DNA of 50,932 nt from Nemertoderma westbladi (Eukaryota; Animalia; Xenacoelomorpha). Below the pieces are notes generated by a model. It did not search any database, was not told the DNA's origin, and saw nothing but the letters and a program-made list of their open reading frames with translations. Of this stretch, positions 12,870 to 46,831 are shown in pieces (position 1 is the first letter of the stretch; the number at the start of each line of letters is the position of its first letter). The position numbers and the translations under genes were made by a program. The stretch is taken from NCBI GenBank assembly GCA_032718475.1, contig JAUCBJ010003018.1:1-50932 (forward strand). Reading direction: 5' to 3'.

Positions 12870-12944
12870 CATAAATAACATTGGCGTAAATGCGACAATT
12901 ATTCGTGGTATTTTGAAGTAACTTGGCATAAAGGGTTCCACAAG
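12870..12944 (-). CDS. ANO: Anoctamin alternative exon G1 (75 nt, LVEPFMPSYFKIPRIIVAFTPMLFM)
   Basis: ttgttacag acceptor, gtaaat donor. Continues ...RVNPITQ in phase 0 with the conserved EP..P motif preceding TM3. Confidence 0.85.
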
Positions 12945-13474
12945 CTGTAACAAATGATATTATAAGACAGTAGATATGTTCCTATACTTAAAGGAAAAGG
13001 TCCCATGAGCTGTAACAAATGATATTATAAGACAGTAGATATGTTCCTATACTTAAAGGAAAAGGTCCCATCAGCTGTAACAAATGATATTATAAGACAG
13101 TAGATATGTTCCTATACTTAAAGGAAAAGGTCCCATCAGCTGTAACAAATGATATTATAAGACAGTAGATACGTTCCTATACTTAAAGGAAAAGGTCCCA
13201 TCAGCTGTAACAAATGATATTATAAGACAGTAGATATGTTCCTATACTTAAAGGAAAAGGTCCCATCAGCTGTAACAAATGATATTATAAGACAGTAGAT
13301 ACGTTCCTATACTTAAAGGAAAAGGTCCCATCAGCTGTAACAAATGATATTATAAGACAGTAGATATGTTCCTATACTTAAAGGAAAAGGTCCCATCAGC
13401 TGTAACAAATGATATTATAAGACTGTAGATATGTTCCTATACTTAAAGGAAAAGGTCCCATCAGCTGTAACAAA
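12943..13474. repeat. 65-bp tandem array (8 copies + 12 bp) containing the splice acceptor of exon G1
   Basis: Units start at 12943, 13008 ... 13463 and are nearly identical. Each carries TTTGTTACAG|CT on the minus strand. Confidence 0.97.
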
Positions 13475-13719
13475 AATTATTAAATGTGTCTTCAAATCGT
13501 CTGCAATGATAGAAAAATACCGGTTATTAAATTATATAAAGTATATAGTAGTTATTTTCGAAGTGACTGAGTGGAACATAATTATTGAAAAATATAATAC
13601 AAAGAAATATTAATTTGTAAACCACCTGACACACATAAGGTTGATGTTGATAGAGATTTAAAAGTTTATGTATAAAGTATATATATATATTTCAATTGTA
13701 TGTATTCTCAAAGAATATA

Positions 13720-15595: not shown

Positions 15596-15964
15596 TATTT
15601 AATAACTGTAAATATTACAGTATTATTGGAGAATTATCACATTTCTAAAACATGTTTAGTTGTTGTGCTAAATAAATAATTAGCTGAAGAATAAATCCAA
15701 TAGACCTACACTTTTCACAATACACTAATTTATCCCAGAGGAATTCCTTCACAAATAAGTACAACAAATAAGTTAACATTTGCAAATGTCACAATTTTAG
15801 TACACACTACACACTTGAGGTTGCAAAGTACTTTACAGCGTTCCGATACTCGCCGCTTTACTTTACTCACTCACATCACACGTTGTTGTACCACCTCGAT
15901 GACTGTTTCAGTCACATAATTTTTAACTTTTCCGTAAATAAAATAACTATGGATCACTCGTTAC

Positions 15965-16110
15965 CTGGGTAATCGGGTTAACCCTCGACTGCTTGGCTTT
16001 GGCCTCGAACTCGGGCCTTATCTGCTCCTCTTCCTCCTCGAAACCAAATAAATCCCAGTCGTAATCGATCTCGTTTTGGAGCCGCTTCCAAAACTCGAGA
16101 AACGTTGTAG
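15965..16110 (-). CDS. ANO: Anoctamin exon F (146 nt, [A][48 protein letters not shown])
   Basis: tttatttag acceptor, gtaacg donor, phase matches exon E, conserved FLEFWKR and RPEF. Confidence 0.93.
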
Positions 16111-16244
16111 CTAAATAAACCAATAATTATAGAACAACATAATGTAAATTTATTCATAAATAACAAACATTTATAACATGGCCGGCCACATTGGCCTACT
16201 TTATTTGCCGCCCATGAAAAATAATGAAACGAAAACTACCCAGT

Positions 16245-17075
16245 CATTTATCAATCGATTCGTTTGAAATTTTCAGTGAATGGTTTTGACATATTGGCCA
16301 ATAAAACTTGTAGACAGAAATTTCAAATTTTAATCAGAAGACTAATGTTAACTAAAAAATATAAAGTGTGTTTTATTTTTGGCCGATATTTTGTCATATA
16401 ATCGGCTCAAAACATAACTTAACACTCAAAATTTCAAAATTCTGTCTACAAGTTTTATTGGTTAATATGCCAAGCTATTCACTTAAAATTCAAACGAATT
16501 GATTAAAAAATGATGGAGTAGATAGGTTTTGAGTAAAGTAAAAAATGATAAATAACTTTCTGAGTAAAATACGTTAAAGTTTGAACCTTCCCGCGTAAAT
16601 TGGTCAGTCTCTATGTGACAGCCAAATTAATTAATTTAAATAGTCTTATATTAATGATTTTAAGGAAACAGACAGCTGGAATTCTCAATACGGGGGTTTT
16701 AGTATTAGCTGATTTCAATTCTGATGCCAGTTTTCAAGTTTGGCCAAATCTAGTCTGTTTGTCTAGCTGTATGTCGTATTGTCTGTCTATCTGTTGGTTT
16801 GTCCGTCAAAATATAATAAAACACTCGAAATATCTAAAAGTTTCGCTTTGGGGGTTTTCCTGGTCGGTGATTTCATTTCCGATGTCAGTTTTAATTTTTG
16901 ACTGAATTTTTTCTGTCTATTTATTAGTCTGGCTGTCTGCCTTTCTGTCTGTTCGAATGTCGGTTAACATAAAAAAAAACACACATTGTAGCTAACATTT
17001 TCATTATGGGGGTTTTCGGGGTCGCTGATTTCATTTCCGATGTCAGTTTTGATGTTCGGCAAAATCTAGTCTGTT
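16245..17075. repeat. Probable non-autonomous element remnant(s): ~88-bp inverted repeat plus three diverged ~160-bp direct repeats
   Basis: 16245-16332 is inverted at 16426-16513. GGGGTTTT..G.C..TGATTTCA.TTC.GATG.CAGTTTT recurs near 16692, 16850 and 17008, with CTGT-rich spacers. Confidence 0.55.
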
Positions 17076-17483
17076 TGTTTGTCGAGAAACACATTTTTTC
17101 GCGACAATAATGTTAATTTTATTTTTATGGAAACATGCCATTGTAAAATTACCATAAGCTCCAAAACTAAACACGTTAAGAAGTCATAACTTACATATTC
17201 GGATTCGCCATTAAATTCTGCACACAAATCGACAAAAATTAAGGTTTTTGATTTTTTATCGTAAAAAAGGTAAAGTAACCCCCCCCCCCCCCCCCCCCCC
17301 CCTTATAGTCCTAATTATGAACAAAGGCGAATCTATTTGTATTTATGCGTGAGGATAACTATTTACATACATGTGTGTAAAGTAGCACTTTACAGTGTGA
17401 TGATCCGAGTGGCTTTGTTACACGAACGAACGTTAGTGAGAGAGTGAAAATAAAGCCACGACGATCAGAACACTGTAAAGTAT

Positions 17484-18609: not shown

Positions 18610-18773
18610 CCCAAATAGCCATAAATATAGAGAAGAAGACCGTGCCGGCGTTGTCGAACAGATGCGTCGCTCTGATAGTAGAGCAACTCTCCTTCAGGTG
18701 CCAATACGGACACAGTTGGTCGCACAGCGGACACATAACCTCCTCCCCCACTGCTCCATTGCAGACTTCATCG
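18610..18773 (-). CDS. ANO: Anoctamin exon E (164 nt, [S][54 protein letters not shown])
   Basis: aaacag acceptor, gtaaga donor, conserved Cys-rich extracellular loop and TM2. Confidence 0.95.
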
Positions 18774-19202: not shown

Positions 19203-19337
19203 CTTAATTTGTCGCCAATCATAGTGAAACAGCCGTAGATAAAGGCGATAAAACCAACAATGGCGGCGGGAATGAGGAATTCAGTGTAGAAACCCAACCA
19301 CGCAAAATAAATACCAACCTTCTCGCCAAAATATTTC
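19203..19337 (-). CDS. ANO: Anoctamin exon D (135 nt, [A][44 protein letters not shown])
   Basis: tttttag acceptor, gtgaat donor, [15 protein letters not shown] signature and TM1. Confidence 0.95.
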
Positions 19338-19532: not shown

Positions 19533-19572
19533 TAACACTAACGCAATGAGGTTAACACTAACGCAATGAGGT
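19533..19572. repeat. Exact 20-bp tandem duplication spanning the donor of exon C
   Basis: TAACACTAACGCAATGAGGT x2, which is ACCTCATTGC|GTTAGTGTTA x2 on the minus strand. Confidence 0.95.
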
Positions 19573-19684
19573 CTAACGGCTGGTACTTGTAATAGCGTCT
19601 CGGTCGGGCCCAGAATTCGTACAACAAATGTCTCTCATTCTTAGCCCCGTCAACCAATACCGAGCCTTCGAAGGAGAAGTCGCC
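19563..19684 (-). CDS. ANO: Anoctamin exon C (122 nt, GDFSFEGSVLVDGAKNERHLLYEFWARPRRYYKYQPLDLI)
   Basis: atttag acceptor, gttagt donor. Completes PLHD|G and contains R.LLY..WA and KYQPLDLI. Confidence 0.95.
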
Positions 19685-19945: not shown

Positions 19946-22900
19946 ACGCGGCAGTGAATATACCGTTATTCAGTAACTTACATCGTGTAATGGGTACGTG
20001 GCTGTGAATGTACCGTTATTCAGTAACTTACATCGTGTAACGGGTACGCGGCTGTGAATGTACCGTTATTCAGTAACTTACATCGTGTAACGGGTACGCG
20101 GCTGTGAATGTACCGTTATTCAGTAACTTACATCGTGTAACGGGTACGCGGCTGTGAATGTACCGTTATTCAGTAACTTACATCGTGTAACGGGTACGCG
20201 GCTGTGAATGTACCGTTATTCAGTAACTTACATCGTGTAACGGGTACGTGGCTGTGAATGTACCGTTATTCAGTAACTTACATCGTGTAACGGGTACGCG
20301 GCTGTGAATGTACCGTTATTCAGTAACTTACATCGTGTAACGGGTACGCGGCATTGAATGTACCGTTATTCAGTAACTTACATCGTGTAACGGGTACGCG
20401 GCTGTGAATGTACCGTTATTCAGTAACTTACATCGTGTAACGGGTACGCGGCAGTGAATGTACCGTTATTCAGTAACTTACATCGTGTAACGGGTACGTG
20501 GCTGTGAATGTACCGTTATTCAGTAACTTACATCGTGTAACGGGTATGCGGCATTGAATGTACCGTTATTCAGTAACTTACATCGTGTAACGGGTACGTG
20601 GCAGTGAATGTACCGTTATTCAGTAACTTACATCGTGTAACGGGTACGCGGCTGTGAATGTACCGTTATTCAGTAACTTACATCGTGTAACGGGTACGTG
20701 GCTGTGAATGTACCGTTATTCAGTAACTTACATCGTGTAACGGGTACGCGGCTGTGAATGTACCGTTATTCAGTAACTTACATCGTGTAACGGGTACGCG
20801 GCTGTGAATGTACCGTTATTCAGTAACTTACATCGTGTAACGGGTACGCGGCTGTGAATGTACCGTTATTCAGTAACTTACATCGTGTAACGGGTATGCG
20901 GCATTGAATGTACCGTTATTCAGTAACTTACATCGTGTAACGGGTACGCGGCAGTGAATGTACCGTTATTCAGTAACTTACATCGTGTAATGGGTACGTG
21001 GCTGTGAATGTACCGTTATTCAGTAACTTACATCGTGTAACGGGTATGCGGCATTGAATGTACCGTTATTCAGTAACTTACATCGTGTAACGGGTACGTG
21101 GCTGTGAATGTACCGTTATTCAGTAACTTACATCGTGTAACGGGTACGCGGCAGTGAATGTACCGTTATTCAGTAACTTACATCGTGTAACGGGTACGCG
21201 GCTGTGAATGTACCGTTATTCAGTAACTTACATCGTGTAACGGGTACGTGGCAGTGAATGTACCGTTATTCAGTAACTTACATCGTGTAACGGGAACGTG
21301 GCTGTGAATGTACCGTTATTCAGTAACTTACATCGTGTAACGGGTACGTGGCAGTGAATGTACCGTTATTCAGTAACTTACATCGTGTAACGGGTACGCG
21401 GCAGTGAATGTACCGTTATTCAGTAACTTACATCGTGTAACGGGAACGTGGCTGTGAATGTACCGTTATTCAGTAACTTACATCGTGTAACGGGTACGCG
21501 GCATTGAATGTACCGTTATTCAGTAACTTACATCGTGTAACGGGTACGCGGCAGTGAATGTACCGTTATTCAGTAACTTACATCGTGTAACGGGTACGTG
21601 GCTGTAAATGTACCGATATTCAGTAACTTACATCGTGTAACGGGTACGCGGCAGTGAATGTACCGTTATTCAGTAACTTACATCGTGTAACGGGTACGTG
21701 GCTGTGAATGTACCGATATTCAGTAACTTACATCGTGTAACGGGTACGCGGCAGTGAATGTACCGTTATTCAGTAACTTACATCGTGTAACGGGTACGTG
21801 GCTGTGAATGTACCGTTATTCAGTAACTTACATCGTGTAACGGGTACGCGGCTGTGAATGTACCGTTATTCAGTAACTTACATCGTGTAACGGGTACGCG
21901 GCAGTGAATGTACCGTTATTCAGTAACTTACATCGTGTAACGGGTACGCGGCTGTGAATGTACCGTTATTCAGTAACTTACATCGTGTAACGGGTACGTG
22001 GCAGTGAATGTACCGTTATTCAGTAACTTACATCGTGTAACGGGAACGTGGCTGTGAATGTACCGTTATTCAGTAACTTACATCGTGTAACGGGTACGCG
22101 GCTGTGAATGTACCGTTATTCAGTAACTTACATCGTGTAACGGGTACGCGGCTGTGAATGTACCGTTATTCAGTAACTTACATCGTGTAACGGGTGCGTG
22201 GCTGTGAATGTACCGTTATTCAGTAACTTACATCGTGTAACGGGTACGTGGCAGTGAATGTACCGTTATTCAGTAACTTACATCGTGTAACGGGTACGCG
22301 GCAGTGAATGTACCGTTATTCAGTAACTTACATCGTGTAACGGGAACGTGGCTGTGAATGTACCGTTATTCAGTAACTTACATCGTGTAACGGGTACGCG
22401 GCATTGAATGTACCGTTATTCAGTAACTTACATCGTGTAACGGGTACGCGGCAGTGAATGTACCGTTATTCAGTAACTTACATCGTGTAACGGGTACGTG
22501 GCTGTGAATGTACCGATATTCAGTAACTTACATCGTGTAACGGGTACGCGGCAGTGAATGTACCGTTATTCAGTAACTTACATCGTGTAACGGGTACGTG
22601 GCTGTGAATGTACCGATATTCAGTAACTTACATCGTGTAACGGGTACGTGGCTGTGAATGTACCGTTATTCAGTAACTTACATCGTGTAACGGGAACGTG
22701 GCTGTGAATGTACCGTTATTCAGTAACTTACATCGTGTAACGGGTACGTGGCTGTGAATGTACCGTTATTCAGTAACTTACATCGTGTAACGGGTACGTG
22801 GCTGTGAATGTACCGTTATTCAGTAACTTACATCGTGTAACGGGTACGTGGCTGTGAATGTACCGTTATTCAGTAACTTACATCGTGTAACGGGTACACG

Positions 22901-23423
22901 GCAGTGAATGTACCGTTATTCAGTAACTTACATCGTGTAACGGGTACGCGGCATTGAATGTACCGTTATTCAGTAACTTACATCGTGTAACGGGTACGTG
23001 GCTGTGAATGTACCGTTATTCAGTAACTTACATCGTGTAACGGGTACGTGGCTGTGAATGTACCGTTATTCAGTAACTTACATCGTGTAACGGGTACATG
23101 GCTGTGAATGTACCGTTATTCAGTAACTTACATCGTGTAACGGGTACGTGGCTGTGAATGTACCGTTATTCAGTAACTTACATCGTGTAACGGGTACGTG
23201 GCTGTGAATGTACCGTTATTCAGTAACTTACATCGTGTAACGGGTACGCGGCAGTGAATGTACCGTTATTCAGTAACTTACATCGTGTAACGGGTACGTG
23301 GCAGTGAATGTACCGTTATTCAGTAACTTACATCGTGTAACGGGTGCGTGGCTGTGAATGTACCGTTATTCAGTAACTTACATCGTGTAACGGGTATGCG
23401 GCATTGAATGTTCCGTTATTCAG
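19946..23423. repeat. 50-bp tandem array (~69 copies): last 42 nt of exon B plus donor GTAAGTTA
   Basis: Unit TACCGTTATTCAGTAACTTACATCGTGTAACGGGTACGCGGCTGTGAATG. The reverse complement encodes LNNGTF(T/N)AAYPLHD followed by GTAAGT. The terminal unit is the real exon end. Confidence 0.98.
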
Positions 23424-23538
23424 CAGGCGTTTGATCCCGACCTTCCCTGAACCGTATTTGCACCGGAGCAAAATCTGGTAGACCAGCCGGCTGCGTTGCG
23501 TGGGCGTGAAGAAAGTCTCCTTGTCTTTTATTATAAAT
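23382..23538 (-). CDS. ANO: Anoctamin exon B (157 nt, [Q]FIIKDKETFFTPTQRSRLVYQILLRCKYGSGKVGIKRLLNNGTFNAAYPLHD)
   Basis: aaacag acceptor, gtaagt donor, phase matches exons A and C. Confidence 0.95.
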
Positions 23539-23782: not shown

Positions 23783-26700
23783 CCCCCTTTACTAACTGTT
23801 CTATGTGGCCCCTTTACTAACTATTCTATGTGGCCCCCTTACTAACTGTTCTATGTGGCCCCTTACTAACTGTTCTATGTGACCCCTTTACTAACTGTTC
23901 TATGTGACGCCTTTACTAACTATTCTATGTGACCCCTTTACTAAAACTGTTCTATATGACCCCTTTACTAACTGTTCTATGTGGCCCCTTTACTAACTGT
24001 TCTATGTGGCCCCTTTACTAACTATTCTATGTGACCCCTTTACTAACTATTCTATGTGAACCCTTTACTAACTGTTCTATATGACCCCTTTACTAACTAT
24101 TCTATGTGACCCCTTTACTAACTGTTCTATGTGACCCCTTTACTAACGGTTCTATGTGACCCTTTACTAACTGTTCTATGTGACCCCTTTACTAACTGTT
24201 CTATGTGGCCCCCTTACTAACTGTTCTATGTGGCCCCCTTTACTAACTGTTCTATGTGGCCCCTTTACTAACTTTTCTATGTGACCCCTTTACTAACTGT
24301 TCTATGTGGCCCCTTTACTAACTATTCTATGTGACCCCTTTACTAACTGTTCTATGTGGCCCCTTTACTAACTATTCTATGTGACCCCTTTACTAACTGT
24401 TCTATGTGGCCCCTTTAACTGTTCTATGTGACCCCTTTACTAACTATTCTATGTGGCCCCTTACTAACTGTTCTACGTGGCCCCTTACTAACTGTTCTAT
24501 GTGACCCCTTTACTAACTGTTCTATGTGACCCCTTACTAACTGTTCTATGTGACCCCTTTACTAACTGTTCTATGTGACCCCTTACTAACTATTCTATGT
24601 GACCCCTTTACTAACTGTTCTATGTGACCCCTTTACTAACTGTTCTATGTGGCCCCTTTACTAACTGTTCTATGTGACCCCTTTACTAACTGTTCTATGT
24701 GACCCCTTACTAACTATTCTATGTGACCCCTTTACTAACTGTTCTATGTGACCCTTTACTAACTGTTCTATGTGGCCACTTTACTAACTATTCTAAGAGG
24801 CCCCTTTACTAACTGTTCTACGTGGCCCCTTTACTAACTGTTCTATGTGACCCCTTACTAACTATTCTATGTGACCCCTTTACTAACTGTTCTATGTGAC
24901 CCTTTACTAACTGTTCTATGTGGCCCCTTTACTAACTGTTCTATGTGACCCCTTTACTAACTGTTCTATGTGACCCCTTACTAACTATTCTATGTGACCC
25001 CTTTACTAACTGTTCTATGTGGCCCCTTACTAACTGTTCTATGTGACCCCTTTACTAACTGTTCTATGTGACCATTTACTAACTGTTCTATGTGACCCCT
25101 TTACTAACTGTTCTATGTGACCCCTTACTAACTGTTCTATGTGACCCCTTTACTAACTGTTCTATGTGGCCCCTTACTAACTGTTCTATGTGACCCCTTT
25201 ACTAACTGTTCTATGTGACCCCTTTACTAACTGTTCTATGTGGCCCCTTTACTAACTGTTCCATGTGGCCCCTTTACTAACTGTTCTATGTGACCCCTTA
25301 CTAACTATTCTATGTGACCCCTTTACTAACTGTTCTATGTGACCCCTTTACTAACTGTTCTATGTGGCCCCTTTACTAACTATTCTAAGAGGCCCCTTTA
25401 CTAACTGTTCTATGTGACCCTTTACTAACTGTTCTATGTGGCCACTTTACTAACTGTTCTATGTGGCCCCTTTACTAACTGTTCTATGTGGCCCCTTTAC
25501 TAACTATTATAAGAGGCCCCTTTACTAACTGTTCTATGTGGCCCCTTTACTAACTATTCTAAGAGGCCCCTTTACTAACTGTTCTATGTGACCCCTTTAC
25601 TAACTATTCTATGTGGCCCCTTTACTAACTGTTCTATGTGGCCCCTTACAAACTGTTCTATGTGACCCCTTTACTAACTGTTCTATGTGGCCCCTTTACT
25701 AACTATTCTATGTGACCCCTTTACTAACTGTTCTATATGGCCCCTTTACTAACTGTTCTATGTGACCCCTTTACTAACTGTTCTATGTGACCCCTTTACT
25801 AACTGTTCTATGTGACCCCTTTACTAACTGTTCTATGTGGCCCCTTTACTAACTATTCTATGTGGCCCCTTTACTAACTGTTCTATGTGGCCCCTTTATT
25901 AACTGTTCTATGTGGCCCCTTACAAACTGTTCTATGTGACCCCTTTACTAACTGTTCTATGTTGCCCCTTTACTAACTGTTCTATGTGACCCCTTTACTA
26001 ACTGTTCTATGTGGCCACTTTACTAACTATTCTATGTGGCCCCTTTACTAACTGTTCTATGTGGTCCCTTTACTAACTGTTCTATGTGGCCCCTTTACTA
26101 ACTGTTCTATGTGGCCCCTTTATTAACTGTTCTATGTGGCCCCTTACAAACTGTTCTATGTGACCCCTTTACTAACTGTTCTATGTTGCCCCTTTACTAA
26201 CTGTTCTATGTGACCCCTTTACTAACTGTTCTATGTGGCCACTTTACTAACTATTCTATGTGGCCCCTTTACTAACTGTTCTATGTGACCCCTTTACTAA
26301 CTGTTCTATGTTGCCCCTTTACTAACTGTTCTATGTGACCCCTTTACTAACTGTTCTATGTGGCCACTTTACTAACTATTCTATGTGGCCCCTTTACTAA
26401 CTGTTCTATGTGGCCCCTTTACTAACTATTCTATGTGGCCCCTTTACTAACTGTTCTATGTGGCCCCTTTATTAACTGTTCTATGTGGCCCCTTTACTAA
26501 CTGTTCTATGTGGCCCCCTTACTAACTGTTCTATGTGGCCCCTTACAAACTGTTCTATGTGACCCCTTTACTAACTGTTCTATGTTGCCCCTTTACTAAC
26601 TGTTCTATGTGACCCCTTACTAACTGTTCTATGTGACCCCTTTACTAACTATTCTATGTGACCCCTTTACTAACTATTCTATGTGACCCCTTTACTAACT

Positions 26701-29700: not shown

Positions 29701-32700
29701 CTAACTGTTCTATGTGGCCCCTTTACTAACTGTTCTATGTGACCCCTTTACTAACTGTTCTATGTGGCCCCTTTACTAACTGTTCTATGTGACCCCTTTA
29801 CTAACTGTTCTATGTGGCCCCTTACTAACTGTTCTATGTGACCCCTTTACTAACTGTTCTATGTGGCCCCTTTACTAACTGTTCTATGTGGCCCCTTTAC
29901 TAACTGTTCTATGTGACCCCTTTACTAACTGTTCTATGTTACCCCTTTACTAACTGTTCTATGTGACCCCTTACTAACTGTTCTATGTGACCCCTTTACT
30001 AACTGTTCTATGTGGCCCCTTTACTAACTGTTCTATGTGACCCCTTTACTAACTGTTCTATGTGGCCCCTTACTAACTGTTCTATGTGACCCCTTACTAA
30101 CTGTTCTATGTGGCCCCTTACTAACTGTTCTATGTGGCCCCTTTACTAACTTTTCTATGTGACCCCTTTACTAACTGTTCTATGTGACCCCTTTACTAAC
30201 TGTTCTATGTGACCCCTTACTAACTGTTCTATGTGACCCCTTACTAACTGTTCTATGTGGCCCCTTTACTAACTGTTCTATGTGACCCCTTTACTAACTG
30301 TTCTATGTGGCCCCTTTACTAACTGTTCTATGTGACCCCTTACTAACTGTTCTATGTGACCCCTTTACTAACTATTCTATGTGACCCCTTTACTAACTGT
30401 TCTATGTGGCCCCTTTACTAACTGTTCTATGTGGCCCCTTTACTAACTGTTCTATGTGGCCCCTTTACTAACTGTTCTATGTGGCCCCTTTACTAACTGT
30501 TCTATGTGACCCCTTTACTAACTGTTCTATGTGGCCCCTTACTAACTGTTCTATGTGACCCCTTACTAACTGTTCTATGTGACCCCTTACTAACTGTTCT
30601 ATGTGGCCCCTTTACTAACTTTTCTATGTGACCCCTTTACTAACTGTTCTATGTGACCCCTTTACTAACTGTTCTATGTGGCCCCTTTAACTGTTCTATG
30701 TGGCCCCCTTACTAACAGTTCTATGTGACCCCTTACTAACTGTTCTATGTGACCCCTTACTAACTATTCTATGTGACCCCTTTACTAACTGTTCTATGTG
30801 GCCCCTTTACTAACTGTTCTATGTGGCCCCTTACTAACTGTTCTAAGTGACCCCTTTAATAACTGTTCTATGTGGTCCCTTTACTAACTATTCTATGTGA
30901 CCCCTTACTAACTGTTCTATGTGGCCCCTTTACTAACTGTTCTATGTGGCCCCTTACTAACAGTTCTATGTGGCCCCTTTACTAACTGTTCTATGTGACC
31001 CCTTTACTAACTGTTCTATGTGACCCCTTTACTAACTGTTCTATGTGACCCCTTTACTAACTGTTCTATGTGGCCCCTTTAACTGTTCTATGTGGCCCCC
31101 TTACTAACAGTTCTATGTGACCCCTTACTAACTGTTCTATGTGACCCCTTACTAACTATTCTATGTGACCCCTTTACTAACTGTTCTATGTGGCCCCTTT
31201 ACTAACTGTTCTATGTGGCCCCTTACTAACAGTTCTATGTGGCCCCTTTACTAACTGTTCTATGTGACCCCTTTACTAACTGTTCTATGTGACCCCTTTA
31301 CTAACTGTTCTATGTGACCCCTTACTAACTGTTCTATGTGGCCCCTTTACTAACTGTTCTATGTGACCCCTTTACTAACTGTTCTATGTGACCCCTTTAC
31401 TAACTGTTCTATGTGGCCCCTTACTAACTGTTCTCTGTGGCCCCTTTACTAACTTTTCTATGTGACCCCTTTACTAACTGTTCTATGTGACCCCTTTACT
31501 AACTGTTCTATGTGACCCCTTACTAACTGTTCTACGTGGCCCCCTTACTAACTGTTCTATGTGGCCCCTTACTAACTGTTCTCTGTGGCCCCTTTACTAA
31601 CTTTTCTATGTGACCCCTTTACTAACTGTTCTATGTGGCCCCTTTACTAACTGTTCTATGTGGCCCCTTACTAACAGTTCTATGTGGCCCCTTTACTAAC
31701 TGTTCTATGTGACCCCTTTACTAACTGTTCTATGTGACCCCTTTACTAACTGTTCTATGTGACCCCTTACTAACTGTTCTATGTGGCCCCTTTACTAACT
31801 GTTCTATGTGACCCCTTACTAACTGTTCTACGTGGCCCCCTTACTAACTGTTCTATGTGGCCCCTTTACTAACTGTTCTATGTGACCCCTTACTAACTGT
31901 TCTATGTGACCCCTTACTAACTGTTCTCTGTGGCCCCTTTACTAACTTTTCTATGTGACCCCTTTACTAACTGTTCTATGTGACCCCTTTACTAACTGTT
32001 CTATGTGACCCCTTTACTAACTGTTCTATGTGGCCCCTTTACTAACTGTTCTATGTGGCCCCTTTACTAACTGTTCTATGTGACCCCTTTACTAACTGTT
32101 CTATGTGGCCCCTTTACTAACTGTTCTATGTGGCCCCTTTACTAACTGTTCTATGTGACCCCTTTACTAACTGTTCTATGTGGCCCCTTTACTAACTGTT
32201 CTATGTGACCCCTTTACTAACTGTTCTATGTGGCCCCTTTACTAACTGTTCTATGTGACCCCTTACTAACTGTTCTATGTGACCCCTTACTAACTGTTCT
32301 ATGTGACCCCTTTACTAACTGTTCTATGTGGCCCCTTTACTAACTGTTCTATGTGGCCCCTTTACTAACTGTTCTATGTGGCCCCTTTACTAACTGTTCT
32401 ATGTGACCCCTTACTAACTGTTCTATGTGACCCCTTTACTAACTATTCTATGTGACCCCTTTACTAACTGTTCTATGTGGCCCCTTTACTAACTGTTCTA
32501 TGTGGCCCCTTTACTAACTGTTCTATGTGACCCCTTTACTAACTGTTCTATGTGACCCCTTTACTAACTGTTCTATGTGGCCCCTTTACTAACTGTTCTA
32601 TGTGACCCCTTACTAACTGTTCTATGTGACCCCTTTACTAACTGTTCTATGTGGCCCCTTTACTATCTGTTCTATGTGACCCCTTTACTAACTGTTCTAT

Positions 32701-35700
32701 GTGGCCCCCTTACTAACTGTTCTATGTGGCCCCCTTACTAACTGTTCTATGTGGCCCCTTACTAACTGTTCTATGTTACCCCTTACTAACTGTTCTATGT
32801 GACCCCTTACTAACTGTTCTATGTGGCCCCTTTAACTGTTCTATGTGACCCCTTTACTAACTGTTCTATGTGGCCCCTTTACTAACTGTTCTATGTGACC
32901 CCTTACTAACTGTTCTATGTGACCCCTTTACTATCTGTTCTATGTGACCCCTTTACTAACTGTTCTATGTGGCCCCTTTACTAACTGTTCTATGTGGCCC
33001 CTTTACTAACTGTTCTATGTGGCCCCTTACTAACTGTTCTATGTGGCCCCTTTACTAACTGTTCTATGTGGCCCCTTTAACTGTTCTATGTGCCCCTTTA
33101 CTAACTGTTCTATGTGGCCCCTTTACTAACTGTTCTATGTGGCCCCTTTACTAACTGTTCTATGTGACCCCTTTACTAACTGTTCTATGTGGCCCCTTTA
33201 CTAACTGTTCTATGTGACCCCTTACTAACTGTTCTATGTGACCCCTTTACTAACTGTTCTATGTGGCCCCTTTACTAACTGTTCTATGTGGCCCCTTTAC
33301 TAACTGTTCTATGTGGCCCCTTTACTAACTGTTCTATGTGGCCCCTTACTAACTGTTCTATGTGGCCCCTTTACTAACTGTTCTATGTGACCCCTTTACT
33401 AACTGTTCTATGTGGCCCCCTTACTAACTGTTCTATGTGGCCCCTTTACTAACTGTTCTATGTGGCCCCTTTAACTGTTCTATGTGACCCCTTTACTAAC
33501 TGTTCTATGTGGCCCCTTTACTAACTGTTCTATGTGGCCCCTTTACTAACTGTTCTATGTGACCCCTTTACTATCTGTTCTATGTGACCCCTTTACTAAC
33601 TGTTCTATGTGGCCCCTTACTAACTGTTCTATGTGACCCCTTTACTATCTGTTCTATGTGACCCCTTTACTAACTGTTCTATGTGGCCCCTTTACTAACT
33701 GTTCTATGTGGCCCCTTTACTAACTGTTCTATGTGGCCCCTTACTAACTGTTCTATGTTACCCCTTACTAACTGTTCTATGTGACCCCTTACTAACTGTT
33801 CTATGTGGCCCCTTTAACTGTTCTATGTGACCCCTTTACTAACTGTTCTATGTGGCCCCTTTACTAACTGTTCTATGTGACCCCTTACTAACTGTTCTAT
33901 GTGACCCCTTTACTATCTGTTCTATGTGACCCCTTTACTAACTGTTCTATGTGGCCCCTTTACTAACTGTTCTATGTGGCCCCTTTACTAACTGTTCTAT
34001 GTGGCCCCTTACAAACTGTTCTATGTGGCCCCTTCTACGTTCTTGTGCCCTTCTAACTGTTCTATGTGACCCCTTTACTAACTGTTCTCTGTGGCCCCCT
34101 TACTATCTGTTCTATGTGGCCCCCTTACTAACTGTTCTATGTGGCCCCTTTAACTGTTCTATGTGACCCCTTTACTAACTGTTCTATGTGGCCCCTTTAC
34201 TAACTGTTCTATGTGGCCCCTTTACTAACTGTTCTATGTGACCCCTTTACTATCTGTTCTATGTGACCCCTTTACTATCTGTTCTATGTGACCCCTTTAC
34301 TAACTGTTCTATGTGGCCCCTTTACTAACTGTTCTATGTGGCCCCTTTACTAACTGTTCTATGTGGCCCCTTACAAACTGTTCTATGTGGCCCCTTTACT
34401 AACTGTTCTATGTGGCCCCTTTACTATCTGTTCTATGTGACCCCTTTACTATCTGTTCTATGTGACCCCTTTACTAACTGTTCTATGTGGCCCCTTTACT
34501 AACTGTTCTATGTGGCCCCTTTACTAACTGTTCTATGTGGCCCCTTACAAACTGTTCTATGTGGCCCCTTTACTAACTGTTCTATGTGGCCCCCTTACTA
34601 ACTGTTCTATGTGACCCCTTTACTAACTGTTCTATGTGACCCCTTTACTAACTGTTCTCTGTGGCCCCCTTACTATCTGTTCTATGTGGCCCCCATACTA
34701 ACTGTTCTATGTGGCCCCTTTAACTGTTCTATGTGACCCCTTTACTAACTGTTCTATGTGGCCCCTTTACTAACTGTTCTATGTGGCCCCTTTACTAACT
34801 GTTCTATGTGACCCCTTTACTAACTGTTCTATGTGGCCCCTTACTAACTGTTCTATGTGACCCCTTACTAACTGTTCTATGTGACCCCTTACTAACTGTT
34901 CTATGTGGCCCCTTTACTAACTTTTCTATGTGACCCCTTTACTAACTGTTCTATGTGACCCCTTTACTAACTGTTCTATGTGGCCCCTTTAACTGTTCTA
35001 TGTGGCCCCCTTACTAACAGTTCTATGTGACCCCTTACTAACTGTTCTATGTGACCCCTTACTAACTATTCTATGTGACCCCTTTACTAACTGTTCTATG
35101 TGGCCCCTTTACTAACTGTTCTATGTGGCCCCTTACTAACTGTTCTAAGTGACCCCTTTAATAACTGTTCTATGTGGTCCCTTTACTAACTATTCTATGT
35201 GACCCCTTACTAACTGTTCTATGTGGCCCCTTTACTAACTGTTCTATGTGGCCCCTTACTAACAGTTCTATGTGGCCCCTTTACTAACTGTTCTATGTGA
35301 CCCCTTTACTAACTGTTCTATGTGACCCCTTTACTAACTGTTCTATGTGACCCCTTTACTAACTGTTCTATGTGGCCCCTTTAACTGTTTTATGTGGCCC
35401 CCTTACTAACAGTTCTATGTGACCCCTTACTAACTGTTCTATGTGACCCCTTACTAACTATTCTATGTGACCCCTTTACTAACTGTTCTATGTGGCCCCT
35501 TTACTAACTGTTCTATGTGGCCCCTTACTAACAGTTCTATGTGGCCTCTTTACTAACTGTTCTATGTGACCCCTTTACTAACTGTTCTATGTGACCCCTT
35601 TACTAACTGTTCTATGTGACCCCTTACTAACTGTTCTATGTGGCCCCTTTACTAACTGTTCTATGTGACCCCTTTACTAACTGTTCTATGTGACCCCTTT

Positions 35701-38700
35701 ACTAACTGTTCTATGTGGCCCCTTACTAACTGTTCTCTGTGGCCCCTTTACTAACTTTTCTATGTGACCCCTTTACTAACTGTTCTATGTGACCCCTTTA
35801 CTAACTGTTCTATGTGACCCCTTACTAACTGTTCTACGTGGCCCCCTTACTAACTGTTCTATGTGGCCCCTTACTAACTGTTCTCTGTGGCCCCTTTACT
35901 AACTTTTCTATGTGACCCCTTTACTAACTGTTCTATGTGGCCCCTTTACTAACTGTTCTATGTGGCCCCTTACTAACAGTTCTATGTGGCCCCTTTACTA
36001 ACTGTTCTATGTGACCCCTTTACTAACTGTTCTATGTGACCCCTTTACTAACTGTTCTATGTGACCCCTTACTAACTGTTCTATGTGGCCCCTTTACTAA
36101 CTGTTCTATGTGACCCCTTACTAACTGTTCTACGTGGCCCCCTTACTAACTGTTCTATGTGGCCCCTTTACTAACTGTTCTATGTGACCCCTTACTAACT
36201 GTTCTATGTGACCCCTTACTAACTGTTCTCTGTGGCCCCTTTACTAACTTTTCTATGTGACCCCTTTACTAACTGTTCTATGTGACCCCTTTACTAACTG
36301 TTCTATGTGACCCCTTTACTAACTGTTCTATGTGGCCCCTTTACTAACTGTTCTATGTGGCCCCTTTACTAACTGTTCTATGTGACCCCTTTACTAACTG
36401 TTCTATGTGGCCCCTTTACTAACTCTTCTATGTGGCCCCTTTACTAACTGTTCTATGTGACCCCTTTACTAACTGTTCTATGTGGCCCCTTTACTAACTG
36501 TTCTATGTGACCCCTTTACTAACTGTTCTATGTGGCCCCTTTACTAACTGTTCTATGTGACCCCTTACTAACTGTTCTATGTGACCCCTTACTAACTGTT
36601 CTATGTGACCCCTTTACTAACTGTTCTATGTGGCCCCTTTACTAACTGTTCTATGTGGCCCCTTTACTAACTGTTCTATGTGGCCCCTTTACTAACTGTT
36701 CTATGTGACCCCTTACTAACTGTTCTATGTGACCCCTTTACTAACTATTCTATGTGACCCCTTTACTAACTGTTCTATGTGGCCCCTTTACTAACTGTTC
36801 TATGTGGCCCCTTTACTAACTGTTCTATGTGACCCCTTTACTAACTGTTCTATGTGACCCCTTTACTAACTGTTCTATGTGGCCCCTTTACTAACTGTTC
36901 TATGTGACCCCTTACTAACTGTTCTATGTGACCCCTTTACTAACTGTTCTATGTGGCCCCTTTACTATCTGTTCTATGTGACCCCTTTACTAACTGTTCT
37001 ATGTGGCCCCCTTACTAACTGTTCTATGTGGCCCCCTTACTAACTGTTCTATGTGGCCCCTTACTAACTGTTCTATGTTACCCCTTACTAACTGTTCTAT
37101 GTGACCCCTTACTAACTGTTCTATGTGGCCCCTTTAACTGTTCTATGTGACCCCTTTACTAACTGTTCTATGTGGCCCCTTTACTAACTGTTCTATGTGA
37201 CCCCTTACTAACTGTTCTATGTGACCCCTTTACTAACTGTTCTATGTGGCCCCTTTACTATCTGTTCTATGTGACCCCTTTACTATCTGTTCTATGTGAC
37301 CCCTTTACTAACTGTTCTATGTGGCCCCTTTACTAACTGTTCTATGTGGCCCCTTTACTAACTGTTCTATGTGGCCCCTTACAAACTGTTCTATGTGGCC
37401 CCTTTACTAACTGTTCTATGTGGCCCCCTTACTAACTGTTCTATGTGACCCCTTTACTAACTGTTCTATGTGACCCCTTTACTAACTGTTCTCTGTGGCC
37501 CCCTTACTATCTGTTCTATGTGGCCCCCTTACTAACTGTTCTATGTGGCCCCTTTAACTGTTCTATGTGACCCCTTTACTAACTGTTCTATGTGGCCCCT
37601 TTACTAACTGTTCTATGTGACCCCTTACTAACTGTTCTATGTGACCCCTTTACTAACTGTTCTATGTGGCCCCTTTTCTATCTGTTCTATGTGGCCCCTT
37701 TACTAACTGTTCTATGTGGCCCCTTTACTAACTGTTCTATGTGACCCCTTACTAACTGTTCTATGTGGCCCCTTTACTAACTATTCTAAGAGTCCCCTTT
37801 ACTAACTGTTCTATGTGACCCCTTACTAACTTTTCTATGTGACCCCTTTACTAACTGTTCTATGTGGCCCCTTACTAACTGTTCTATGTGACCCCTTTAC
37901 TAACTGTTCTATGTGGCCCCTTACTAACTGTTCTATGTGACCCCTTACTAACTTTTCTATGTGACCCCTTTACTAACTGTTCTATGTGGCCCCTTACTAA
38001 CTGTTCTATGTGGCCCCTTACTAACTGTTCTATGTGACCCCTTACTAACTTTTCTATGTGACCCCTTTACTAACTGTTCTATGTGGCCCCTTACTAACTG
38101 TTCTATGTGGCCCCCTTACTAACTGTTCTATGTGGCCCCTTACTAACTGTTCTGTGTGGCCCCTTTACTAACTGTTCTATGTGACCCCTTTACTAACTGT
38201 TCTATGTGACCCCTTTACTAACTGTTCCATGTGGCCCCTTACAAACTTTTCTATGTGACCCCTTTACTAACTGTTCTATGTGGCCCCTTACTAACTTTTC
38301 TATGTGACCCCTTTACTAACTGTTCTGTGTGGCCCCTTTACTAACTGTTCTATGTGACCCCTTTACTAACTGTTCTATGTGGCCCCTTACTAACTGTTCT
38401 ATGTGGCCTCTTTACTAACTGTTCTATGTGACCACTTTACTAACTGTTCTATGTGGCCCCTTACTAACTGTTCTATGTGGCCCCTTTACTAACTGTTCTA
38501 TGTGGCCCCTTTACTAACTGTTCTATGTGGTCCCTTTACTAACTGTTCTATGTGACCCCTTACTAACTGTTCTATGTGGCCCCTTACTAACTGTTCTATG
38601 TGGCCCCTTACTAACTGTTCTATGTGGCCCCCTTACTAACTGTTCCATGTGGCCCCTTACTAACTTTTCTATGTGACCCCTTTACTAACTGTTCTGTGTG

Positions 38701-41700
38701 GCCCCTTTACTAACTGTTCTATGTGACCCCTTTACTAACTGTTCTATGTGGCCCCTTACTAACTGTTCTATGTGGCCTCTTTACTAACTGTTCTATGTGA
38801 CCACTTTACTAACTGTTCTATGTGGCCCCTTACTAACTGTTCTATGTGGCCCCTTTACTAACTGTTCTATGTGGCCCCTTTACTAACTGTTCTATGTGGT
38901 CCCTTTACTAACTGTTCCATGTGGCCCCTTACTAACTGTTCCATTTGGCCCCTTTACTAACTGTTCTATGTGGCCCCTTTACTAACTGTTCTATGTGGTC
39001 CCTTTACTAACTGTTCTATGTGACCCCTTTACTAACTGTTCTATGTGGCCCCTTACTAACTGTTCTATGTGACTCCTTTACTAACTGTTCTATGTGACCC
39101 CTTTACTAACTGTTCTATGTGACCCCTTTACTAACTGTTCTATGTGGCCCCTTTACTAACTATTCTAAGAGGCCCCTTTACTAACTGTTCTATGTGACCC
39201 CTTTACTAACTGTTCTATGTGGCCCCTTACTAACTGTTCTATGTGACTCCTTTACTAACTATTCTAAGAGGCCCCTTTACTAACTGTTCCACGTGGCCCC
39301 TTTACTAACTGTTCTATGTGGCCCCTTACTAACTGTTCTATGTGACTCCTTTACTAACTGTTCTATGTGGCCCCTTTACTAACTATTCTAAGAGGCCCCT
39401 TTACTAACTGTTCTATGTGACCCCTTTACTAACTGTTCTATGTGGCACTTTACTAACTGTTCTATGTGGTCCCTTTACTAAATGTTCTATGTGGCCCCTT
39501 TACTAACTATTCTAAGAGGCCCCTTTACTAACTGTTCTATGTGACCCCTTTACTAACTGTCCTATGTGGCACTTTACTAACTGTCCTATGTGGCCCCTTA
39601 CTAACTATTCTAAGAGGCCCCTTTACTAACTGTTCCACGTGGCCCCTTTACTAACTGTTCTATGTGGCCCCTTACTAACTGTTCTATGTGACTCCTTTAC
39701 TAACTGTTCTATGTGGCCCCTTTACTAACTATTCTAAGAGGCCCCTTTACTAACTGTTCTATGTGACCCCTTTACTAACTGTTCTATGTGGCACTTTACT
39801 AACTGTTCTATGTGGTCCCTTTACTAAATGTTCTATGTGGCCCCTTTACTAACTATTCTAAGAGGCCCCTTTACTAACTGTTCTATGTGACCCCTTTACT
39901 AACTGTCCTATGTGGCACTTTACTAACTGTCCTATGTGGCCCCTTACTAACTGTTCTATGTGGCCCCTTTACTAACTGTTCTATGTGGTCCCTTTACTAA
40001 CTGTTCCATGTGGCCCCTTTACTAACTGTTCTATGTGGCCCCTTACTAACTGTTCCATTTGGCCCCTTTACTAACTGTTCTATGTGGCCCCTTTACTAAC
40101 TGTTCTATGTGGTCCCTTTACTAACTGTTCTATGTGGCCCCTTTACTAACTATTCCAAGAGGCCCTTTTACTAACTGTTCTATGTGACCCCTTTACTAAC
40201 TGTTCTATGTGGTCCCTTTACTAACTGTTCCATGTGGTCCCTTTACTAACTGTTCTATGTGGTCCCTTTACTAACTGTTCCACGTGGCCCCTTTACTAAC
40301 TGTTCTATGTGGCCCCTTACTAACTGTTCTATGTGACTCCTTTACTAACTGTTCTATGTGGCCCCTTTACTAACTATTCCAAGAGGCCCTTTTACTAACT
40401 GTTCTATGTGACCCCTACACTAACTGTTCCACGTGGCCCCTTTACTAACTGTTCTATGTGGCCACTTTACTAACTGTTCTATGTGGCCCCTTTACTAACT
40501 GTTCTATGTGGCCCCTTTACTAACTATTCTAAGAGGCCCCTTTACTAACTGTTCTATGTGGCCCCTTTACTAACTGTTCTAGGTGGCCCCTTTACTAACT
40601 GTTCTATGTGGCCACTTTACTAACTGTTCTATGTGACCCCTTTACTAACAGTTCTATGTGACCCCTTTACTAACTGTTCTATGTGACCCTTTACTAACTG
40701 TTCTATGTGACCCCTTTACTAACAGTTCTATGTGACCCCTTTACTAACTGTTCTATGTGACCCTTTACTAACTGTTCTATGTGGCCCCTTTACTAACTGT
40801 TCTATGTGGCCCCTTTACTAACTGTTCTATGTGGCCACTTTACTAACTGTTCTATGTGACCCCTTTACTAACTGTTCTATGTGGCCCCTTACTAACTGTT
40901 CTATGTGGCCCCTTTACTAACTGTTCTATGTGGCCCCTTTACTAACTGTTCTATGTGGCCCCTTTACTAACTGTTCTATGTGACCCCTTTACTAACTATT
41001 CTATGTGGCCCCTTACTAACTGTTCTATGTGGCCCCTTTACTAACTGTTCTATGTGGCCCCTTTACTAACTGTTCTATATGGCCCCTTTACTAACTGTTC
41101 TATGTGGCCCCTTTACTAACTGTTCTATGTGACCCCTTACTAACTGTTCTATGTGGCCCCTTACTAACTGTTCTATGTGGCCCCTTTACTAACTGTTCTA
41201 TGTGGCCCCTTTACTAACTGTTCTATGTGACCCCTTTACTAACTGTTCTATGTGACCCTTTACTAACTGTTCTATGTGGCCCCTTTACTAACTGTTCTAT
41301 GTGACCCTTTACTAACTGTTCTATGTGGCCCCTTTACTAACTGTTCTATGTGGCCCCTTTACTAACTGTTCTATGTGGCCCCTTTACTAACTGTTCTATG
41401 TGGCCACTTTACTAACTGTTCTATGTGACCCCTTTACTAACTGTTCTATGTGACCCTTTACTAACTGTTCTATGTGGCCCCTTTACTAACTGTTCTATGT
41501 GGCCCCTTTACTAACTGTTCTATGTGACCCCTTACTAACTGTTCTATGTGGCCCCTTACTAACTGTTCTATGTGGCCCCTTTACTAACTGTTCTATGTGG
41601 CCCCTTTACTAACTGTTCTATGTGGCCCCTTTACTAACTGTTCTATGTGACCCCTTTACTAACTATTCTATGTGGCCCCTTACTAACTGTTCTATGTGGC

Positions 41701-43934
41701 CCCCTTTACTAACTGTTCTATGTGGCCCCTTTACTAACTTTTCTATGTGACCCCTTTACTAACTGTTCTATGTGGCCCCTTTACTAACTGTTCTATGTGA
41801 CCCCTTACTAACTGTTCTATGTGGCCCCCTTTACTAACTGTTCTATGTGGCCCCTTACTAACTGTTATATGTGGCCCCTTACTAACTGTTCTATGTGGCC
41901 CCTTTACTAACTGTTCTATGTGACCCCTTTACTAACTGTTCTATGTGGCCCCTTTAACTGTTCTATGTGACCCCTTTACTAACTATTATATGTGGCCCCT
42001 TTACTAACTTTTCTATGTGACCCCTTTACTAACTGTTCTGTGTGGCCCCTTTACTAACTGTTCTATGTGACCCCTTTACTAACTGTTCTATGTGACCCCC
42101 TTACTAACTGTTCTATGTGGCCCCCTTTACTAACTGTTCTATGTGGCCCCTTTACTAACTTTTCTATGTGACCCCTTTACTAACTGTTCTGTGTGGCCCC
42201 TTTACTAACTGTTCTATGTGACCCCTTTACTAACTGTTCTATGTGGCCCCTTTACTAACTGTTCTATGTGACCCCTTACTAACTGTTCTATGTGGCCCCT
42301 TACTAACTGTTCTATGTGACCCCTTTACTAACTGTTCTATGTGACCCCTTTACTAACTGTTCTATGTGACCCCTTTACTAACTGTTCTATGTGGCCCCTT
42401 TACTAACTGTTCTATGTGGCCCCTTACTAACTGTTCTAAGTGACCCCTTTACTAACTGTTCTATGTGGTCCCTTTACTAACTGTTCTATGTGGCCCCTTT
42501 ACTAACTGTTCTATGTGGCCCCTTTACTAACTGTTCTATGTGACCCCTTTACTAACTGTTCTATGTGACTCCTTTACTAACTGTTCTATGTGGCCCCTTT
42601 ACTAACTATTCTAAGAGGCCCCTTTACTAACTGTTCTACGTGACCCTTTACTAACTGTTCTATGTGACCCCTTTACTAAATGTTCTATGTGGCCCCTTTA
42701 CTAACTATTCTAAGAGGCCCCTTTACTAATTGTTCTATGTGACCCCTTTACTAACTGTTCTATGTGACTCCTTTACTAACTGTTCTATGTGGCCCCTTTA
42801 CTAACTATTCTAAGAGGCCCCTTTACTAACTGTTCTACGTGACCCTTTACTAACTGTTCTATGTGACCCCTTTACTAAATGTTCTATGTGGCCCCTTTAC
42901 TAACTATTCTATGTGGCCCCCTTACTAACTGTTCTATGTGGCCCCTTTACTAACTGTTCTATGTGACCCCTTTACTAAATGTTCTATGTGACCCCTTTAC
43001 TAACTATTCTATGTGGCCCCTTACTAACTGTTCTATGTGGCCCCCTTTACTAACTGTTCTATGTGACCCCTTACTAACTGTTCTATGTGGTCCCTTTACT
43101 AACTGTTCTATGTGACCCCTTTACTAACTGTTCTATGTGGCCCCTTACTAACTGTTCTATGTGGCCCCCTTTACTAACTGTTCTATGTGACCCCTTTACT
43201 AACTATTCTATGTGGTCCCTTTACTAACTGTTCTATGTGGTCCCTTTACTAACTGTTCTATGTGACCCCTTTACTAACTGTTCTATGTGGCCCCTTTACT
43301 AACTGTTCTATGTGGCCCCCTTTACTAACTGTTCTATGTGACCCCTTACTAACTGTTCTATGTGGTCCCTTTACTAACTGTTCTATGTGACCCCTTTACT
43401 AACTGTTCTATGTGGTCCCTTTACTAACTGTTCTATGTGACCCCTTTACTAACTATTCTATGTGGCCCCTTTAACTGTTCTATGTGGCCCCTTTACTAAC
43501 TGTTCTATGTGACCCCTTTACTAACTGTTCTATGTGGCCCCTTTACTAACTGTTCTATGTGACCCCTTTACTAACTATTCTATGTGGCCCCCTTACTAAC
43601 TGTTCTATGTGGCCCCCTTACTAACTGTTCTATGTGGCCCCTTACTAACTGTTCTATGTGGCCCCTTTACTAACTGTTCTATGTGGTCCCTTTACTAACT
43701 GTTCTATGTGACCCCTTTACTAACTATTCTATGTGGCCCCTTTACTAACTGTTCTATGTGACTCCTTTACTAACTGTTCTATGTGGCCCCTTTACTAACT
43801 ATTCTAAGAGGCCCCTTTACTAACTGTTCTACGTGACCCTTTACTAACTGTTCTATGTGGCCCCTTTACTAACTGTTCTATGTGACCCCTTACTAACTGT
43901 TCTCTGTGGCCCCCTTACTAACTGTTCTATGTGA
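23783..43934. repeat. ~20.1-kb satellite of 25-bp units (24- and 22-bp variants, ~800 copies): last 12 nt of exon A plus 13 nt of donor/intron
   Basis: Unit CCCCTTTACTAACTGTTCTATGTG(G/A), which is (T/C)CACATAGAACA|GTTAGTAAAGGGG on the minus strand. The array ends inside exon A at 43934. Confidence 0.98.
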
Positions 43935-46823: not shown

Positions 46824-46831
46824 CTACTTGT

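What the first reader, a model, noticed from the sequence alone, without database searches (positions are those of the whole stretch)
12943..43934. Splice-junction amplification: every intronic tandem array is a multiplied exon-intron boundary of the same gene
Seen: four unrelated tandem repeats (20 bp x2, 65 bp x8, 50 bp x~69, 25 bp x~800) each start exactly across an anoctamin splice site (three donors, one acceptor) and extend only into the intron, leaving one intact exon. That is 4 of the 18 junctions identified, while several kb of deep intron and intergenic DNA carry no comparable array. Together they look like stages of one process from birth to 20-kb satellite. Inference: a splice-site-targeted mechanism (RNA-templated or rolling-circle repair, R-loop or pausing-linked slippage), or selection for arrays of snRNP-binding sites. 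I do not know of this being described as a system, but I cannot check the literature.
Basis: partly seen in the sequence, partly recalled or inferred. Interest (0 to 1): 0.93.

Follow-up and report, generated by a model that had tools for sequence, protein, structure and literature searches.

The report
Splice-junction "mirage" repeats in anoctamin gene
In an animal ion-channel gene, four splice sites have each been copied head-to-tail into the neighbouring intron (2 to 815 times), a repeat type already known from lancelets and human genes; the RNA uses the copy next to the exon at the two sites checked, so the repeats are likely tolerated by-products, and one array likely grew from a decayed extra copy of a switchable exon.

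Summary
The four arrays are real and each holds a splice site of a minus-strand anoctamin gene: donors in 25 bp x815, 50 bp x69.6 and 20 bp x2, an acceptor in 65 bp x8.2. They fill 24.2 of the 31.8 kb gene span. Random placement gives this with p about 1e-4 to 2e-3, though the window was picked after the fact. Spliced contigs use the exon-adjacent site at the two arrays checked; 0 of 824 decoy sites keeps the frame open. This is the published "mirage" minisatellite (lancelet Adh3 and globins; human F7), here far larger. The scan has already noted it across this genome and in 148 findings from at least 24 genomes. Corrections: growth "only into the intron" follows from geometry; the 65-mer shares just 2 identical bases with its exon; three off-junction arrays exist. 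New here: RNA shows two mutually exclusive 75-nt exons, a third copy lies beside them, and the 65-mer looks like a decayed fourth. Decoy sites show no special conservation. Why arrays crowd at exon edges is still open.

The parts
43923..44050 (-). Anoctamin exon Ea; its last 11 bases plus donor ACA|GTTAGT form the first 25-mer unit
   Evidence: Pfam Anoct_dimer 95-130, E 8e-4; frame continuous into Eb; donor not checked against RNA
23784..43933 (-). 25-bp donor array, 815 units, 88 unit types, 748 with GTTAGT intact; contains a block repeated at a lag of 175 units; intron 20,384 bp of which 245 bp is not array
23382..23538 (-). Anoctamin exon Eb; its last 42 bases plus donor GAT|GTAAGT form the first 50-mer unit
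   Evidence: Pfam Anoct_dimer 133-187, E 8e-19; donor not checked against RNA
19946..23423 (-). 50-bp donor array, 69 whole units (68 intronic, 13 types) plus a partial distal unit; all keep GTAAGT; read-through meets a stop 3 codons past the donor
19563..19684 (-). Anoctamin exon Ec; donor TGC|GTTAGT
   Evidence: Pfam E 3e-7; spliced contig of run X4 uses this first donor
19533..19572 (-). 20-bp donor duplication, two identical copies
   Evidence: present without difference in a contig of run X2
19203..19337 (-). Anoctamin exon Ed (no array)
   Evidence: Pfam E 2e-15; spliced in X4 and X5
18610..18773 (-). Anoctamin exon Ee (no array)
   Evidence: spliced in X4; tblastn with P0005, E 1e-12
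15965..16110 (-). Anoctamin exon Ef (no array), upstream partner of the switchable exons
   Evidence: Pfam E 8e-10; spliced in X4
12943..13474 (-). 65-bp acceptor array, 8.2 units, 8 decoy acceptors; the unit read from its AG resembles the head of a sister exon (likely a decayed fourth copy)
   Evidence: loop contigs in DNA runs X2 and X3
12870..12944 (-). Mutually exclusive exon Eg1 (75 nt), spliced at the exon-adjacent acceptor
   Evidence: X4 contig Ef-Eg1-next exon, depth 178; homologue segment p 9e-5 and 1e-5
12498..12572 (-). Mutually exclusive exon Eg2 (75 nt)
   Evidence: X4 contigs (depth 80-90) and an X5 contig, same flanking exons as Eg1
12214..12288 (-). Third 75-nt exon-like copy Eg3, open frame with AG and GT; not seen spliced; holds an intronic poly(A) site at 12249

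Best explanation
These are 'mirage' minisatellites: four splice sites stand in tandem copies, each likely started by a small local duplication in exon-like DNA, likely enlarged by unequal exchange between copies, and likely tolerated because splicing takes the copy next to the exon (seen at two arrays, predicted at the other two). Step 1 (inferred): a 20-65 bp segment is duplicated by slippage or break repair; a repeated GTTA flanks the 20-mer, a 12-base match between two paralogous acceptors flanks the 65-mer, and the 25-mer has at most 1 base of overlap. Step 2 (geometry plus established selection): copies wholly inside an exon would damage the protein and are lost, while a copy across one junction always leaves one whole exon with its site, so the rest is intron. 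Step 3 (pattern shown, process inferred): arrays grow and mix by unequal exchange or conversion. Step 4 (shown for the 20-mer and 65-mer in contigs): the exon-adjacent site is used; every decoy gives a frameshift or stop (shown), so mis-spliced RNA would likely be removed by nonsense-mediated decay. Step 5 (inferred, weakest): loss of exonic copies alone does not give 4 of 4, so duplications must arise or expand more often in or near exons; I favour a property of exon DNA (G+C 46% against 24-35% in these introns, hence chromatin or recombination and repair) over aiming at the splice signal. Under that bias the junction-spanning copies are the only survivors.
For: Unit anatomy. Enrichment over a null that already excludes exonic duplications. 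88 unit types with recurring variants and identical runs of 25-34 units at lag 175. RNA-like contigs use the first donor of the 20-mer and the last acceptor of the 65-mer. 0 of 824 decoys (747 + 68 + 1 + 8) leaves an open frame. The window's only other long array sits in frame in a G+C-rich LINE ORF, and the 65-mer unit is itself exon-like (26 of 51 bases to Eg3, shuffle p 1.3e-4; 0 of 506 background AG-51-mers as good). Published mirages behave the same way (PMC3087553; PMC1557585).
Against: No genome is held, so the bias to exons was not measured genome-wide. The 65-mer array is only 33% G+C, which does not fit a plain G+C rule. All three donor arrays sit on GTNAGT donors (3 of 4, against 0 of 5 other donors; Fisher p 0.048, post hoc), which leans to a splice-signal effect. 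The donors of the two largest arrays were not read in RNA. Contigs drop rare forms and cannot tell site choice from decay of mis-spliced RNA. The distal ends of the 50-mer and 65-mer arrays are partial units, so their original breakpoints are lost.
Confidence: 0.58

Rival explanations
1. Splicing-linked mutational targeting: polymerase pausing, R-loops or pre-mRNA-templated repair at splice sites would seed the duplications at the splice signal itself.
For: 4 of 4 long arrays in the gene span hold a complete splice signal; the three donor arrays are all on GTNAGT donors, 3 of 4 against 0 of 5; many other genes of this genome are noted with the same pattern (unchecked notes).
Against: Nothing here shows an RNA intermediate; units hold intron bases, so spliced mRNA cannot be the template. 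The 65-mer is explained by homology between two paralogous acceptors. The donor test is post hoc on 9 sites.
Confidence: 0.27
2. The decoy arrays are kept by selection as binding sites for U1/U2 snRNPs or as regulators of splicing, including the Eg1/Eg2 choice.
For: All 69 whole 50-mer units keep GTAAGT and none of 11 variable positions falls in the donor; the 65-mer lies just upstream of a switchable exon.
Against: That absence is not significant (p 0.085); in the 25-mer, donor positions vary as much as the others (p 0.39). Copy number spans 2 to 815. No decoy yields a protein.
Confidence: 0.06
3. A chance cluster in a repeat-rich genome whose original introns were short (about 200-430 bp), so that any array is near a junction.
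For: Without arrays and transposons the introns are 195-429 bp; masking transposons raises the per-array chance to 12-34%; the window was chosen for the pattern.
Against: Even masked, p = 1.6e-3; the pattern is noted again and again in this genome.
Confidence: 0.05
4. The large arrays are inflated by assembly.
Against: 88 and 13 unit types with interleaved recurring variants; the 65-mer is a high-depth loop in runs of two studies and leaves into the same flank, and the 20-mer is in a contig of X2, though either run may be the assembly's source.
Confidence: 0.04

Closest known systems
Lancelet 'mirage' minisatellites (Adh3, globins BflGb6 and BflGb9, troponin C, PGBD5). Seen: 7 passages of PMC3087553, 8 passages of PMC3902484; the original Adh3 paper not read, known only as cited there; supplements not opened
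   Same: Tandem copies of an exon-intron boundary at either donor or acceptor, several per gene, units 10-160 bp, normal splicing, origin called unclear
   Different: Copy numbers given in those passages are 2-7; here up to 815 (20 kb). The organism is not shown to be a lancelet. One array here appears to derive from a decayed mutually exclusive exon
Human boundary-spanning minisatellites: F7 intron 7 (37 bp, 5-9 copies), 6-16 (25 pseudo-sites), CBS, LAMIN B2, PDGF. Seen: abstract, Introduction and Discussion of PMC1557585
   Same: First unit spans the exon-intron boundary; the most upstream donor is used although the copies are functional
   Different: One donor array per gene and at most 25 copies; 5'-to-3' scanning explains donors but not the choice of the last of nine acceptors seen here
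Mutually exclusive exons from tandem exon duplication (search listing only)
   Same: Same-length, same-phase paralogous exons used one at a time (Eg1, Eg2)
   Different: Searches found no report of such exons in an anoctamin, and none tying them to a junction minisatellite

Membership tests
Mirage minisatellite | Head-to-tail repeat whose unit spans an exon-intron boundary of the host gene | tested here: met
   Clear for the 20-, 25- and 50-mers. The 65-mer holds the acceptor and 2 identical exon bases, then a diverged exon-like head
Mirage minisatellite | Copies keep AG or GT splice signals | tested here: met
   748 of 815, 69 of 69, 2 of 2 donors; 8 decoy acceptors
Mirage minisatellite | Regular splicing is undisturbed | tested here: met
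   Met at the 2 of 4 arrays that were laid, in contigs that drop rare forms; the other 2 inferred from the reading frame
Mirage minisatellite | Length varies between haplotypes or cells | tested here: inconclusive
   An X1 contig over 18705-19940 has 1217 letters on 1236 places with 21 gap letters, i.e. 20 missing and 1 extra, which would fit an allele without the 20-bp copy; the place of the gap was not shown
Mirage minisatellite | Locus-specific unit, not a dispersed satellite | tested here: inconclusive
   No unit 14-mer elsewhere in the window; 65-mer loop at about 5 times flank depth in X2; no genome held
Mutually exclusive exon cluster | Paralogous exons of equal length and phase | tested here: met
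   Three 75-nt phase-0 exons, each in frame with Ef; all align to one homologue segment
Mutually exclusive exon cluster | Each is spliced between the same flanking exons and not to one another | tested here: met
   Eg1 and Eg2 share both flanks and no joint between them was listed; Eg3 not seen spliced

The most novel reading that the evidence does not exclude
This lineage has a mutational process aimed at splice sites that both builds kilobase arrays of decoy sites and, at a larger step size, duplicates whole exons into mutually exclusive sets; the 65-mer is a fourth switchable exon caught in decay and re-amplified, and its copy number tunes which pore-side segment the anoctamin uses.
Probability: 0.15. 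Interest if true: 0.75.

Novelty: new member of a known kind. Interest (0 to 1): 0.3.

Why it matters
The repeat type is known and this scan has met it many times, so this locus alone adds little. It still bears on two open points. The cause of junction-seeded repeats is called unclear in the passages read, and a genome with hundreds of copies per site can test exon-DNA bias against splice-site targeting. And an exon that is spliced at the last of nine near-identical acceptors, inside a mutually exclusive pair, is a natural test of exon definition against scanning and decay. The switchable exon covers a membrane-side segment of the channel, so the isoforms may differ in function.

Tried and rejected
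Whole-genome test: no genome held. No run is on record as RNA; X4 and X5 are treated as RNA only because their contigs are spliced and one ends in poly(A). Eg3 has no spliced contig among the 4 X4 and 1 X5 records laid; this is not evidence that it is silent. Downstream and upstream anoctamin exons were sought with tblastn of four homologues (three printed, output cut) and not found in the window. The organism's own protein was not among 8 hits of 24 candidates. The idea that the 65-mer is Eg1's own head plus its own intron tail was rejected: the distal tail does not match the unit tail beyond the shared acceptor (p 0.65); at protein level the unit's likeness to the sister exons is not significant (p 0.07-0.70). 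No convincing docking/selector pairing around the switchable exons (the downstream exon is outside the window). Selection on decoy motifs not supported. Unit lengths are all non-multiples of 3, expected 20% of the time, so dropped. Papers opened without bearing: PMC10078293 (12 passages), PMC12783039, PMC12592175, PMC4555475, 10.1101/2024.12.01.626237 (no hit for 'repeat' or 'satellite'), PMC10565955.
Full report
Observation. A minus-strand anoctamin gene runs through them. Six exons (Ea 44050-43923, Eb 23538-23382, Ec 19684-19563, Ed 19337-19203, Ee 18773-18610, Ef 16110-15965) join in frame with any one of three 75-nt exons (Eg1 12944-12870, Eg2 12572-12498, Eg3 12288-12214) to 927 nt without a stop. 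The six match Pfam Anoct_dimer and Anoctamin in order; the three short ones get no Pfam hit but align to one segment of two homologues (shuffle p 1e-5 to 0.049). The start and end of the gene lie outside the window. The three donor units are 11+14, 42+8 and 10+10 exon+intron bases. The arrays fill 24.2 of 31.8 kb; the Ea-Eb intron is 20,384 bp, of which 245 bp is not array.

More than chance? With each array cut to one unit and wholly exonic placements excluded, a unit falls on a junction 4-14% of the time; all four, p = 3.8e-5. With transposon DNA masked the figures are 12-34% and p = 1.6e-3. Three further arrays (period >=10, score >=50) are off junctions: a 17-mer, a 19-mer and a 30-mer x33 in a LINE ORF. 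Counting them, >=4 of 5 in the gene span has p = 1.2e-4 and >=4 of 7 in the window p = 1.2e-5. The window was picked for this pattern, so the values overstate, and no genome is held for a fair test. Growth 'only into the intron' is no extra evidence: a tandem copy across one junction always leaves one whole exon at one end.

Splicing. No run is on record as RNA, but contigs of X4 and X5 are spliced. One 1488-nt X4 contig joins Ec, Ed, Ee and Ef at the modelled sites, uses the first of the two 20-mer donors, and ends exactly at the end of Ef. On the next stretch, X4 has Ef-Eg1-next exon (depth 178) and Ef-Eg2-same next exon (depth 80-90); X5 has the second form; no Eg1-Eg2 joint was listed. So Eg1 and Eg2 are mutually exclusive, and Eg1 is entered at the acceptor next to the exon, past eight decoys. 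A fourth X4 contig (depth 25) reads through the Eg2 donor and ends in poly(A) at 12249 inside Eg3, where the genome is not A-rich. Eg3 was not seen spliced. Of 824 decoys tested (747, 68, 1, 8), none leaves an open frame, so decay of mis-spliced RNA could hide their use.

Are the arrays real? The 25-mer has 88 unit types, 33 of them single, with recurring variants and identical runs of 34, 32 and 25 units at a lag of 175 units; the 68 intronic 50-mers fall into 13 types, three units one base from the exon copy. That is the pattern of unequal exchange, though the long block could be an assembly duplicate. The 65-mer appears as a 95-nt loop contig at depth 83 against 16 for the flank in X2 and as high-depth pieces in X3 that leave into the same distal flank. 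X2 holds the 20-bp duplication without difference; an X1 contig over the same region lacks 20 letters and gains 1, at a place not shown. Either sample may be the source of the assembly. The 3.5-kb and 20-kb lengths are unverified.

The 65-mer differs from the others. Only 2 bases past its AG are identical to Eg1. Read from the AG, the unit matches Eg1 at 15 of the first 24 bases and Eg3 at 26 of 51 (shuffle p 1.3e-4; none of 506 intronic AG-51-mers scores as well against any of the three exons), as close as the three exons are to each other (25-34 of 75). The intron tail before the most distal copy does not match the unit's tail beyond the shared acceptor (p 0.65). The simplest reading is a truncated fourth sister exon whose acceptor shares 12 bases with that of Eg1, 65 bp away, and slippage or unequal exchange between the two. 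Protein-level likeness is not significant, so this is an inference from DNA. The switchable segment aligns, through the abalone homologue, to about residues 439-463 of mouse TMEM16F; that this is the start of the third membrane helix is recalled, not from a call.

Mechanism. I favour local duplication biased to exon-like DNA, loss of wholly exonic copies, growth by unequal exchange, and tolerance through use of the exon-adjacent site. Exons here are 46% G+C against 24-35% for non-array intron, and the one other long array lies in frame in a G+C-rich ORF; the 65-mer at 33% does not fit well. Splice-site targeting remains a real rival: all three donor arrays are on GTNAGT donors (3 of 4 against 0 of 5, p 0.048, post hoc). 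Selection for decoys finds no support: donor positions of the 25-mer vary as much as the rest (p 0.39) and their constancy in the 50-mer is not significant (p 0.085). TRF match falls with size among the three larger arrays (98, 96, 92%), which fits ageing, but four independent arrays are not a time series.

What is known. Tandem copies of exon-intron boundaries are named 'mirages' in lancelet Adh3, globin, troponin C and PGBD5 genes; they occur at donors and acceptors, vary in length, leave splicing normal, and their origin is called unclear (PMC3087553, 7 passages; PMC3902484, 8 passages). Human F7, 6-16, CBS, LAMIN B2 and PDGF carry donor-spanning minisatellites of up to 25 copies; in F7 only the most upstream donor is used, in 6-16 and CBS two pseudo-sites as well (PMC1557585, abstract, Introduction, Discussion). 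The lead to these papers came from earlier notes; I read the passages myself. Supplements were not opened; those of PMC3087553 hold the mirage alignments. Searches listed no genome-wide test of junction enrichment, and no mutually exclusive anoctamin exon or link of such exons to mirages; the library lacks most subscription papers. The scan's own unchecked notes list 75 fitting look-ups among 79 windows of this genome, with arrays up to 1,300 copies, and 148 findings in at least 24 genomes. My searches did not fix the taxon.

Verdict. Real, more than local chance, and a new, large member of a known kind. Interest 0.3. The part worth keeping is the mutually exclusive exon cluster with an acceptor array that likely grew from a decayed member.

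Noticed in passing
window 12214-12944 (-): Cluster of three 75-nt paralogous anoctamin exons; two shown mutually exclusive in spliced contigs. No report of this in anoctamins was found.
   Followed up: yes
window 12249 (-): Intronic poly(A) site inside Eg3; the transcript reads through the Eg2 donor and meets a stop 26 codons later, giving a truncated isoform.
   Followed up: partly
window 45663-50525 (+): Apparently intact LINE-like element with two ORFs; the 1233-codon frame has a reverse transcriptase domain and begins with a 30-bp x33 array encoding Pro/Thr/Ala-rich decapeptides (Pfam Decapeptide, RVT_1).
   Followed up: partly
window 13717-15598: DNA transposon with 155-bp inverted ends (94%) and a broken transposase-like region in the Ef-Eg1 intron; 200-800 depth in DNA runs against about 16-45 for unique DNA. 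Family name mariner-like is from recall.
   Followed up: partly
window 3620-4594 (+), 6283-8217 (-), 9455-10021 (-): Three intronless ORFs (C2H2 zinc finger; kinase with RCC1 repeats, Nek8-like by recall; SOSS-B-like) lying inside what is likely a long anoctamin intron, since the next exon is outside the window.
   Followed up: partly
window 363-980 (+) and 8380-8718 (-): Two near-identical retroelement 3' fragments in opposite orientation flanking the zinc-finger and kinase genes.
   Followed up: no
window 19533-19572: Possible allele without the 20-bp duplication in run X1 (20 letters missing, 1 extra, place not shown).
   Followed up: partly
window 23784-43933: Higher-order block in the 25-mer array repeated at a lag of 175 units, about 4.3 kb.
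   Followed up: partly
window 2242-2265, 8970-8995, 17279-17302: Pure C or G runs of 24-26 bases.
   Followed up: no
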